Sequence record: OK076929.1
From: Escherichia phage vB_EcoM_C2-3
Length of the DNA stretch: 64,000 nt
Strand: one strand, 5' to 3'
The position numbers were made by a program, and so were the translations under genes. Every line of letters starts with the position of its first letter. Position 1 is the first letter of the stretch. The notes beneath the pieces were generated by a model that was given only the letters and a program-made list of their open reading frames with translations, searched no databases and was not told the DNA's origin. Shown here piece by piece: positions 993 through 1,976 of the stretch.

Positions 993-1106
993 AATTTGTG
1001 ACAACTGTCACATTAATATCTACTTGACGCGATTATAGGGGTTGAACTGATCACTCTTCTCTTAATTTCGTGTGAAGACATCTTGATTGTTGGAGTAGGT
1101 ATTAAT

Positions 1107-1280: not shown

Positions 1281-1631
1281 ATGAAAGGTAATGTTTATTT
1301 AGTAGTTCATGATTTAACATTCTATTTTAATCATAATGATACTGTTATTTCTGAACGTGTAATTAATTTGCTTTATCAGCATGCAGATTATGTTTATGTC
1401 GAAAACGAATATGGTCATTGGCAATTTCTCAAAAATCGTTCATTTGGTTTAGATGGTTACGAATATTTTGATCGTAAAGACCTTTTAGATACAATTCCGT
1501 TATCTACACAATATCAAAATCATAAGTCTTTACATAAATGCCGGCTAATTCGAAATGCTGAATCCGCGTATGAAGCAATTGATTTGTGGCGTAAACGCCG
1601 TGAATATATTGATTCTTTAAAAGAATATTAA
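1281..1631 (+). CDS. hypothetical protein (116 aa) immediately downstream of tRNA-Arg
   Basis: ORF track; GAGG Shine-Dalgarno 8 nt upstream of ATG. Confidence 0.55.
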   Translation: MKGNVYLVVHDLTFYFNHNDTVISERVINLLYQHADYVYVENEYGHWQFLKNRSFGLDGYEYFDRKDLLDTIPLSTQYQNHKSLHKCRLIRNAESAYEAIDLWRKRREYIDSLKEY

Positions 1632-1639
1632 GAAACCGG

Positions 1640-1937
1640 GTCGCTACCGGTAAGTCGTCGGACTGATGTTCCCTGGAGTATAGTTTCCTCCCACAGTTTT
1701 ACTGTGTTCTGGCTCTTTACTATCACAGCAGAAACGGCGCACCGAATTATCGATTCGAGGAAATATCTTTGCCGTAAGCCGAGTAGCGTTTTTGACGGAA
1801 CGTTCGGATATGGTCGAGATATGGCCTTTTAAAAATATTGAGTAGCGTCAACTACTTAATAACCGGGTTCGAATCCCGGCGTTTCGTACAAACACTTGCC
1901 TTAGCAGGTGGAACCCCGACAAGGTTGCCGCAAGGCT
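1640..1937 (+). ncRNA. candidate small stable RNA region (tRNA-like T-arm element, no credible ORF)
   Basis: About 300 nt GC-richer segment without ORF, contains ccgggttcgaatcccgg T-arm-like hairpin, ends at intrinsic terminator; T4 encodes small stable RNAs next to its tRNAs. Confidence 0.35.
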
Positions 1938-1966
1938 TAGCCCCGACCGAAAGGTTGGGGCTTTTT
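1938..1966 (+). terminator. intrinsic terminator hairpin (ccccgacc-gaaa-ggttgggg + T-run)
   Basis: 8-bp stem with GNRA loop followed by cttttt. Confidence 0.6.
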
Positions 1967-1968
1967 GG

Positions 1969-1976
1969 TATAAATA
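1969..1976 (+). promoter_or_regulatory. late promoter (TATAAATA)
   Basis: Exact TATAAATA about 40 nt upstream of ATG at 2015. Confidence 0.5.

What the first reader, a model, noticed from the sequence alone, without database searches (positions are those of the whole stretch)
1632..1966. ORF-free structured region after the tRNAs with a tRNA-like T-arm: candidate small stable RNAs
About 330 nt of relatively GC-rich sequence without a credible ORF (track ORF 1838 is an artefactual extension) contains ccgggttcgaatcccgg, a canonical T-arm, plus other paired segments, and ends in a strong terminator. T4 encodes two small stable RNAs of unknown function beside its tRNA genes; this may be their counterpart or a degenerate tRNA.
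Basis: partly seen in the sequence, partly recalled or inferred. Interest (0 to 1): 0.5.

Follow-up and report, generated by a model that had tools for sequence, protein, structure and literature searches.

The report
Phage T4 stable RNAs C and D
This ORF-free stretch encodes this T4-like phage's copies of two small stable RNAs (T4 "species 1" and "species 2", genes rnaC and rnaD) that have been known since the 1970s; their function is still unknown, so the finding is correct but not new.

Summary
The window comes from a Tequatrovirus. Positions about 1631-1743 are the orthologue of T4 rnaD (species 2 RNA). Positions 1750-1888 are the orthologue of T4 rnaC (species 1 RNA), identical at 138 of 139 bases. 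A conserved trailer (1889-1938) and an intrinsic terminator (1939-1967) follow.

Twenty-six distinct rnaC homologues were collected, from at least eight named genera of T4-like phages. Their covariation supports a four-way junction. The 5' and 3' ends form a 7-position acceptor-like stem with two invariant U.U mismatches. This stem runs straight into the canonical T arm (1863-1879). There are two further arms.

The alternative reading, a degenerate cloverleaf tRNA, is not conserved. rnaC is therefore tRNA-like but not a tRNA.

The two extra arms end in invariant 6-nt loops, UUGACG and CGUCAA. These are exact complements and change together in Marfavirus, which suggests a kissing interaction.

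rnaD has invariant ends and an interchangeable middle that always folds into a long hairpin.

The papers I could search still call the function unknown. My best guess, held at low confidence, is a tRNA mimic with an accessory, host-dependent role. Novelty: already known.

The parts
1631..1743 (+). rnaD orthologue (T4 species 2 RNA). It has a 5' hairpin at 1635-1651 (5 bp, 7-nt loop GUCGCUA). A closing stem pairs 1654-1660 with 1735-1742. The middle (about 1668-1720) is variable and forms a long imperfect hairpin.
   Evidence: It aligns to T4 rnaD with identical ends and a replaced middle. In 14 distinct homologues the ends are invariant. The middle comes in 3-4 unrelated sequence types, and all of them fold into a long hairpin. 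One pair covaries (alignment columns 39/109, U-A 6 times and A-U 6 times).
1744..1749 (+). Spacer between rnaD and rnaC (GAATTA). It matches the AAUUA/AAUAA spacers that follow the CCA end of the upstream tRNA in other genera.
1750..1888 (+). rnaC orthologue (T4 species 1 RNA), a four-way junction. Acceptor-like stem: 1751-1757 with 1880-1886. Basal 3 bp: 1758-1760 with 1825-1827. Long hairpin: 1763-1822. Second hairpin: 1836-1861. T arm: 1863-1879. U1887 occupies the discriminator position.
   Evidence: It is 138/139 identical to T4 rnaC. The consensus fold on 20 homologues is 97.2% paired, 26 of 44 pairs have changes on both sides, and 0 of 500 shuffles reach these values. Covariance model R1 scores 155.5 bits here and finds no other copy in the window.
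1792..1797 (+). Apical loop 1 of rnaC, UUGACG. It is kept even where the stem below it is replaced by unrelated sequence.
   Evidence: It is the exact complement of loop 2 in 26 of 26 sequences. Four Marfavirus sequences have UUGGCG here.
1846..1851 (+). Apical loop 2 of rnaC, CGUCAA, the candidate kissing partner of loop 1.
   Evidence: The same four Marfavirus sequences have CGCCAA, which keeps all 6 pairs.
1863..1879 (+). Canonical T arm (CCGGG UUCGAAU CCCGG). It runs directly into the 3' strand of the acceptor-like stem.
   Evidence: The stem is conserved with one covarying pair (G-C in 11 sequences, U-A in 13). The loop motif is lost in the CIP9-type sequences (UGCAUGC).
1889..1938 (+). 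Conserved 3' trailer. It has a hairpin pairing 1893-1899 with 1904-1910, then AACCCCGACAAGGUU and a small GCC/GGC hairpin.
   Evidence: The trailer is conserved even in phages that lack rnaC (JS10, L100-L104).
1939..1967 (+). Intrinsic terminator of the tRNA / stable-RNA transcription unit.
   Evidence: It is identical in T4. The SegB paper states that T4 transcription terminates after the species I RNA gene (PMC2330249).

Best explanation
Window 1631-1888 encodes the orthologues of phage T4 species 2 RNA (rnaD) and species 1 RNA (rnaC). These are the last two products of the long tRNA-operon transcript, which stops at the terminator at 1939-1967.

Shown here: rnaC folds into a conserved four-way junction. 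Its 5' and 3' ends pair into a 7-position acceptor-like stem made of five Watson-Crick pairs and two invariant U.U mismatches. This stem is directly continuous with a canonical T arm, giving the 12-bp acceptor/T minihelix of a tRNA. The anticodon and D arms are replaced by a ~60-nt hairpin and a 10-bp hairpin, and their 6-nt loops are perfectly complementary to each other.

Inferred: because of this shape the host tRNA-maturation enzymes excise it. RNase P would cut just 5' of C1751, which is where the older T4 record X03016 places the 5' end of species 1 RNA. The 3' end would be trimmed back to U1887, as in tRNA genes that lack an encoded CCA. The result would be a compact, nuclease-resistant, non-decoding tRNA look-alike.

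Shown here: rnaD is a 5' hairpin plus a long rod with invariant ends.

The function of both RNAs is unestablished. My preferred mechanism, at about 25% confidence, is that rnaC acts as a tRNA mimic. It would occupy or titrate a factor that recognises the acceptor/T-arm half of tRNAs, and it would be dispensable in laboratory hosts but useful in some natural hosts. The confidence figure given for this explanation (0.9) applies to identity and architecture, not to function.
For: Identity. T4's annotation and the alignments agree. The same sequence occurs in 808 phage records, a few of which annotate rnaC or rnaD.

Architecture. RNAalifold and pair counts on 20-26 distinct homologues show 26-27 pairs with changes on both sides, against 3-10 pairs for structures slid by 1-3 columns, and 0 of 500 shuffles reach the observed values. 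The homologues come from Tequatrovirus, Gaprivervirus, Karamvirus, Kanagawavirus, Moonvirus, Gelderlandvirus, Marfavirus and others.

Wholesale replacement. The whole long arm has unrelated sequence in the PEi20, Kosakonia, Citrobacter, Melville and Marfa types. Length (138-142 nt), shape and apical loop are nevertheless kept.

Acceptor-like stem. The A-U pair at the third position switches to G-C in 16 of 26 sequences.

5' end. X03016 starts species 1 RNA at C2, exactly at the base of the 7-position stem.

3' end. Marfavirus copies encode GU-CCA where the others have GU-ACA.

Genomic position. rnaC always sits in a tRNA cluster, about 5-6 nt after the CCA of a tRNA or of rnaD.

Kissing loops. 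All 6 pairs are complementary in 26 of 26 sequences, with one compensatory change.

Expression and function in T4. RNAC and RNAD were classified as late RNAs, with northern-blot validation using an RNAC probe (PMC9697503). The primary transcript covers the tRNAs plus species I and II RNAs (PMC2330249). The function is called unknown (PMC3014915). A convergent SNP arose in rnaD when a T4-like phage adapted to a semi-permissive host (PMC12685909).
Against: No transcript data exist for this particular phage.

RNase P cleavage, 3' trimming and T-loop modification are inferred from shape and from annotated ends. They were not tested here, and the papers I could search do not document them.

The two T4 records disagree by one nucleotide at each end of rnaC.

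The kissing-loop idea rests on one lineage-level covariation event. The very unequal arm lengths (about 26 bp against 10 bp) make an intramolecular contact geometrically uncertain.

The CIP9 lineage has lost the T-loop motif, so T-loop recognition cannot be universally essential.

Some relatives lack rnaC entirely (JS10 type), and the genera outside the T-even group that were examined lack rnaD. Neither RNA is therefore essential.

Nothing in these data identifies a binding partner.
Confidence: 0.9

Rival explanations
1. The RNAs have no function of their own in trans. They are cis-acting structured modules of the tRNA operon. They would serve as entry points or punctuation for processing nucleases, or as a 3' cap that protects upstream tRNAs from exonucleases, and they would accumulate only because they are stable.
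For: In T-even phages they lie at the 3' end of the transcript, just before the terminator. A conserved trailer persists even where rnaC is absent. From memory, not verified in the papers I could search, laboratory T4 deletions of this region are viable.
Against: In Karamvirus, Gelderlandvirus and the Erwinia phage, rnaC sits in the middle of the cluster, between tRNA-Trp and tRNA-Gly. It cannot be a 3' cap there. Invariant loop sequences, invariant U.U mismatches and a tightly constrained length go beyond what a simple stabiliser needs.
Confidence: 0.15
2. rnaC and/or rnaD are base-pairing regulatory RNAs. Their invariant single-stranded loops (UUGACG, CGUCAA, and GUCGCUA in rnaD) would pair with phage or host transcripts.
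For: The loop sequences are invariant over otherwise diverged stems. One paper refers to them as 'small regulatory RNAs' (PMC9697503), without data.
Against: Six- to seven-nt seeds are too short to assign targets. A scan of the 64-kb window for complements of 11 nt or longer gave only a handful of A/U-rich hits, about the number expected by chance. The two rnaC loops complement each other, which points inward rather than to a target.
Confidence: 0.1
3. The region holds decaying tRNA pseudogenes with no current function.
For: There is a canonical T arm. ARAGORN calls the homologous 95 nt of phage PG7 a 'tRNA-Met', and the PG7 record annotates it that way. Rfam tRNA-Sec gives a weak match of 17 bits at 1795-1887.
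Against: That match is far below the family threshold of 47 bits. The internal acceptor pairing it relies on is broken in half of the homologues and never compensated. The non-tRNA arms are maintained by many compensatory changes across genera. A pseudogene would not keep them.
Confidence: 0.04
4. The region encodes small proteins, as many GenBank records imply by placing 'hypothetical protein' CDS features over it.
For: CDS features overlap the homologous region in many phage records.
Against: No frame is conserved. ORFs here are at most 42 aa on either strand. Substitutions are paired across helices rather than placed at synonymous sites. T4 itself annotates RNAs here.
Confidence: 0.01

Closest known systems
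Phage T4 rnaC (species 1 RNA; NC_000866 70908-71046, X03016 4741-4877)
   Same: It is 138/139 identical. It has the same neighbours (rnaD upstream, trailer and terminator downstream) and the same fold.
   Different: There is one substitution (C1815 here, U in T4). Otherwise it is the same gene.
Phage T4 rnaD (species 2 RNA; NC_000866 71053-71171)
   Same: The first ~40 nt and last ~22 nt are identical, the position relative to rnaC is the same, and the overall hairpin-plus-rod fold is the same.
   Different: The central ~50 nt are replaced by unrelated sequence, one of 3-4 interchangeable types. Here rnaD follows a protein gene (1281-1631). In T4 it abuts tRNA-Arg, so its 5' end cannot be made here by tRNA-Arg 3' processing.
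Transfer RNA (Rfam RF00005)
   Same: It has a canonical T arm, a 7-position acceptor stem directly continuous with that arm, a position inside tRNA gene clusters with tRNA-like spacers, and a 3' flank resembling N-CCA (encoded in Marfavirus).
   Different: It has no D arm and no anticodon arm. Two other arms take their place, the acceptor stem carries a tandem U.U mismatch, and no tRNA finder or model accepts it in this window.
tRNA-like domain of tmRNA
   Same: An acceptor stem plus T arm is formed by the two ends of a larger RNA, with the rest of the molecule inserted where the anticodon and D arms would be. (The list of RNase P substrates in PMC11143913, includes pre-tmRNA.)
   Different: There is no mRNA-like tag reading frame and no G3:U70 alanine identity pair (the third pair here is A-U or G-C). 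ARAGORN finds no tmRNA. The molecule is much smaller.
Bacterial Y-RNA-like YrlA and other tRNA-mimicking small RNAs (recalled from memory)
   Same: These are small stable RNAs that carry a T-arm-containing tRNA-like module, some of them phage-encoded.
   Different: In YrlA the tRNA-like module is internal and the two ends form a protein-binding stem. Here the ends themselves form the acceptor. No Rfam family matched.

Membership tests
T4 rnaC / species 1 RNA | Sequence orthology to the annotated T4 gene | tested here: met
   138/139 identical over the full 139 nt. R1 scores 155.5 bits here, and T4 scores 155.2.
T4 rnaC / species 1 RNA | Position at the distal end of the tRNA cluster, upstream of the operon terminator | tested here: met
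   Order: tRNAs 245-1262, rnaD, rnaC, terminator 1939-1962.
T4 rnaC / species 1 RNA | Accumulates as a stable ~140-nt RNA in infected cells | not testable with these tools
   Reported for T4 by northern blot (PMC9697503). There are no data for this phage.
T4 rnaD / species 2 RNA | Sequence orthology to the annotated T4 gene | tested here: met
   The ends are identical (about 40 nt and 22 nt) and the middle is replaced. The same end-conserved, middle-variable pattern holds in 14 homologues.
T4 rnaD / species 2 RNA | Directly follows tRNA-Arg, as in T4 | tested here: not met
   ORF 1281-1631 (phrog_3355) intervenes. The same arrangement is seen in loci L018 and L060. This is a difference in context, not in the RNA itself.
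tRNA | Cloverleaf with an anticodon arm, recognised by tRNA models | tested here: not met
   ARAGORN and Rfam RF00005 find nothing in 1263-2100. The tRNA-Sec match is 17 bits against a threshold of 47.
tRNA | T arm stacked on a 7-bp acceptor stem formed by the 5' and 3' ends | tested here: met
   Pairing of 1751-1757 with 1880-1886 runs directly into the T arm at 1863-1879. One pair covaries, and two positions are invariant U.U.
tRNA | 3'-terminal CCA, aminoacylation | not testable with these tools
   CCA is not encoded here (GU-ACAAAC) but is encoded in Marfavirus copies (GU-CCAA).
tmRNA | Tag-peptide reading frame and alanine identity pair G3:U70 | tested here: not met
   ARAGORN reports no tmRNA. 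The third acceptor pair is A-U or G-C.
Any Rfam family | Match at the gathering score | tested here: not met
   Only the tRNA genes pass. Nothing in 1263-2100 passes even at E <= 10, apart from noise.

The most novel reading that the evidence does not exclude
rnaC is a dedicated tRNA mimic whose two non-tRNA arms are locked together, or pair two molecules, through a conserved and covarying 6-bp kissing-loop interaction. It would serve the phage as a decoy or sponge for a host factor that recognises the acceptor/T-arm half of tRNAs, for example a tRNA-targeting immune nuclease or toxin, or a maturation enzyme. This would explain why it is dispensable in laboratory strains yet conserved across at least eight genera of T4-like phages. 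It would also fit the finding that the neighbouring rnaD acquired a convergent mutation during adaptation to a semi-permissive host.
Probability: 0.15. Interest if true: 0.7.

Novelty: already known. Interest (0 to 1): 0.27.

Why it matters
As submitted, the finding rediscovers two RNAs that were sequenced from T4 in the 1970s and are annotated in the T4 reference genome. It adds no new kind of element.

Its residual value has three parts.

First, their function is a roughly 50-year-old open question. No Rfam family exists for them, and most of the 808 matching phage records leave them unannotated or cover them with spurious CDS or tRNA features.

Second, the comparative model built here gives concrete, mutable targets for experiments. 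It consists of the four-way junction, the acceptor/T minihelix, the invariant tandem U.U and the complementary loops.

Third, rnaC turns out to be spread well beyond the T-even phages and always embedded in tRNA clusters. That argues for a selected role tied to tRNA biology.

Tried and rejected
(1) Cloverleaf reading of rnaC (acceptor 1795-1802 with 1880-1887, prompted by the Rfam tRNA-Sec alignment and by ARAGORN's 'tRNA-Met' call in PG7). Rejected: that helix is 89% paired, has no compensatory change, and one position is broken in 10 of 20 sequences.

(2) Metagenome scan with TTCGAGGA N{100,130} GGCGTTYCGT. 

(3) IMG/VR scans. These returned only the same lineages, plus chance hits in unrelated viruses. 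No homologue was found outside phages of enterobacteria, but only exact patterns could be searched.

(4) Search for antisense targets of 11 nt or longer in the window. The result was at chance level.

(5) Sigma-70-type promoters using the TTGACG motifs. None was found inside the region on the + strand.

(6) Rfam at permissive thresholds, on the window and on the conserved non-coding stretch after rnaC in phage CIP9. No family matched.

(7) Older literature on processing. Miller 2003, Mazzara 1981 and the Paddock/Abelson papers are not available through the paper tools. Statements about RNase III or RNase P action on species 1 RNA, and about T and pseudouridine in its T loop, rest on memory only and are not used as evidence.

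(8) A search for recent functional work on RNAC and RNAD found nothing beyond 'unknown function'.

Full report
**What the window is.** A 901-base query around the finding is 100% identical to several Escherichia and Shigella T4-like phages (YUEEL01, MLP2 and others). It matches 769 phage records, almost all of them Tequatrovirus and close relatives. ARAGORN finds eleven tRNA genes at 245-1262. Their order resembles the T2L/RB1/RB3-type tRNA region described in PMC2330249. The finding (1632-1966) lies 370 bases further on, after a protein gene at 1281-1631.

**Checking the observation.** The region has no credible ORF. It contains only frames of 24-42 aa, plus a TTG frame at 1838-2488. That frame is an artefactual extension of a gene starting at ATG 2015, whose 157-aa product matches phrog_2280 over its whole length. 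G+C is 49% against 34% for the window, the same as the tRNA cluster. CCGGGTTCGAATCCCGG is at 1863-1879. A terminator with a 10-bp stem and a T run is at 1939-1967. The whole stretch folds far better than shuffled versions (z = -5.2).

**What it is.** The T4 reference genome annotates two misc_RNA features directly after tRNA-Arg. They are rnaD ("small, stable RNA; species 2 RNA", 119 nt) and rnaC ("species 1 RNA", 139 nt). Alignment puts rnaC at window 1750-1888 with 138/139 identity. It puts rnaD at about 1631-1743, with identical ends and a replaced middle. The trailer and terminator after rnaC are also nearly identical to T4. The older record X03016 (a 5-kb record of the T4 tRNA region) labels the same sequences species 2 RNA (120 nt, ending ...GCGCACCA) and species 1 RNA (137 nt, from CGAUUCG... 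to ...CGUUUCGU).

**State of knowledge.** A 2010 review says the biological roles of RNAC and RNAD are unknown (PMC3014915). A 2022 transcriptome study classifies them as late RNAs "of yet unknown functions", with northern-blot validation using an RNAC probe (PMC9697503). A 2025 evolution study found one convergent SNP in all lines of a T4-like phage adapted to host ECOR34. The SNP lies in rnaD, whose function is again described as unknown (PMC12685909). The SegB paper states that the primary transcript runs through the whole tRNA cluster, terminates after the species I gene, and is the precursor of the tRNAs and of both RNAs (PMC2330249). Rfam 15 has no family for either RNA.

**Structure of rnaC.** I collected 26 distinct homologues from the phage collection and IMG/VR. 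They come from Tequatrovirus, Gaprivervirus (VR7), Karamvirus (PG7), Kanagawavirus (CIP9, Kosakonia 305), Moonvirus (NM4.3), Gelderlandvirus (Melville, a Proteus phage), Marfavirus (F48, Marfa), an Erwinia phage and others.

RNAalifold and explicit pair counts support one fold. On 20 sequences, 97.2% of cells are paired and 26 of 44 pairs have changes on both sides. Structures slid by 1-3 columns give 3-9 such pairs, and 0 of 500 shuffles reach the observed values. In window coordinates the fold is:
- an acceptor-like stem, 1751-1757 with 1880-1886, whose third pair switches between A-U and G-C and whose fourth and fifth positions are invariant U.U;
- a 3-bp helix, 1758-1760 with 1825-1827;
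- a ~60-nt hairpin, 1763-1822;
- an A-rich linker;
- a 10-bp hairpin, 1836-1861;
- one unpaired A;
- the T arm, 1863-1879, running without a break into the 3' strand of the acceptor stem.

In nine of the 26 sequences (the PEi20, Kosakonia 305, two Citrobacter phage, Melville and four Marfavirus types) the long hairpin has entirely different sequence. Its length, its bulge pattern and its apical loop are nevertheless kept, and total length stays at 138-142 nt. This is strong evidence of selection on shape.

**Not a tRNA.** The weak Rfam tRNA-Sec alignment (17 bits) and ARAGORN's call of a 95-nt "tRNA-Met" in the PG7 homologue (also annotated in that record) rest on the same pairing. They pair an internal ACGGAACG (1795-1802) with the 3' end. 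Across homologues this helix has no compensatory change. Its fourth pair is broken in 10 of 20 sequences, precisely where the supported fold gains a better pair. rnaC is tRNA-like only in its acceptor/T half.

**Ends and biogenesis (partly inferred).** X03016 begins species 1 RNA at C2, the first base of the 7-position acceptor stem. That is where RNase P would cut a 12-bp acceptor/T minihelix. After the stem comes U1887 in the discriminator position, followed by ACAAAC. Marfavirus copies read U-CCAA here, and the real tRNA genes of this window mostly read N-CCAAAUU. In every genus rnaC follows, by 5-6 nt, the CCA of a tRNA (Trp or Met) or the ...CACC(A) end of rnaD. I therefore infer maturation by the tRNA-processing machinery. 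I could not test this, and I could not read the 1970s-80s processing papers.

**Complementary loops.** The apical loop of the long hairpin is UUGACG (1792-1797) and the loop of the second hairpin is CGUCAA (1846-1851). They are exact Watson-Crick complements in 26 of 26 sequences. In the four Marfavirus sequences they read UUGGCG and CGCCAA, a compensatory change. By my own estimate, the chance that some pair among the three apical loops is perfectly complementary over 6 nt is about 5/4096.

I read this as a kissing interaction. The arm lengths are very unequal, about 26 bp against 10 bp, so I cannot say whether the contact is within one molecule or between two. It rests on a single evolutionary event and should be treated as a hypothesis. 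I do not know whether older literature already noted it.

**rnaD.** Fourteen distinct homologues, all from Tequatrovirus and its closest relatives such as Gaprivervirus and Dhakavirus, have invariant first ~38 and last ~22 nt. These ends form a 5-bp hairpin with a 7-nt loop (1635-1651) and a closing stem (1654-1660 with 1735-1742). One further pair covaries (U-A six times, A-U six times). The middle exists in three or four unrelated sequence types, and each folds into a long hairpin. By energy alone the window's rnaD is unremarkable (z = -0.24), so the case for structure rests on this pattern. rnaD is absent from the other genera, where a true tRNA precedes rnaC.

**Modularity.** JS10 (Dhakavirus) and five IMG/VR contigs join rnaD directly to the trailer, with rnaC precisely missing, and model R1 finds no rnaC in those loci. 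Both RNAs are therefore accessory. I also recall that T4 deletions of this region are viable, but I did not verify that.

**Function.** Nothing here establishes a function. The invariant loops, the invariant U.U pair, the constrained length and the mid-cluster position in several genera argue against a pseudogene and against a mere 3' stabiliser. I found no antisense targets beyond chance in the window.

The explanation I favour is a non-decoding tRNA mimic that engages some factor recognising the acceptor/T-arm half of tRNAs. I put it at roughly one in four. The presence/absence polymorphism and the host-adaptation SNP in the neighbouring rnaD fit an accessory, host-dependent role.

**Verdict.** The finding is real and correctly interpreted, but it is already known. 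The added value is a covariation-supported architecture and a testable loop-loop hypothesis for an RNA family whose function remains unknown.

Noticed in passing
window 1936-1972 and 2494-2527: The rnaC terminator and its flanks (TTAGCCCCGACC.AAAGGTTGGGGCTTTTTGGTAT) occur twice, bracketing ORF 2015-2488 (phrog_2280, unknown function). T4 has a single copy and no ORF at this site. This looks like a gene cassette inserted by recombination at the terminator.
   Followed up: partly
window 1281-1631: A 116-aa ORF (phrog_3355, unknown function) lies between tRNA-Arg and rnaD, and its stop codon (1629-1631) abuts the first conserved base of rnaD. In T4 and JS10, tRNA-Arg directly precedes rnaD. The 5' end of rnaD must therefore be generated differently here.
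   Followed up: partly
L004 (phage JS10) 2500-2700; L100-L104: rnaC is precisely absent. rnaD (...GCGCAC[C/A]GAA) is joined straight to the trailer (CACTTGCC...). rnaC therefore behaves as a present-or-absent module among close relatives.
   Followed up: partly
window 1889-1938: The trailer between rnaC and the terminator is conserved even in phages without rnaC. It contains the hairpin 1893-1910 and AACCCCGACAAGGTT, which resembles a truncated copy of the terminator stem. It may be a processing signal.
   Followed up: no
L002 (phage PG7, KJ101592) 2554-2648; L065 (F48) 1516-1653; L069 (Marfa) 417-554: Public records mis-annotate rnaC. PG7 calls its 3' 95 nt 'tRNA-Met'. F48, Marfa and many others place a 'hypothetical protein' CDS on it. 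Of the records listed, only a few T4, RB10, RB33 and ATK47 records name rnaC or rnaD.
   Followed up: yes
L003 (phage CIP9) about 2655-2760; also L035 and L064: In Kanagawavirus a second conserved non-coding stretch follows rnaC (TTTATGATTTGTGTGGTGAAATTTGGTAGACACGACTGGAATAGC...). It has no Rfam match and may be another structured RNA.
   Followed up: partly
window 993-1106: A 114-nt gap interrupts the otherwise tightly packed tRNA cluster between tRNA-Asn and tRNA-His. [quoted passage not shown]
   Followed up: no
window 1781-1789 and 1840-1848: rnaC contains a direct internal repeat, GAGUAGCGU, at the base of both apical loops. In addition, 1786-1794 (GCGUUUUUG) resembles the 3' end at 1879-1887 (GCGUUUCGU). 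This explains the spurious alternative acceptor pairing and hints at an origin by internal duplication.
   Followed up: no
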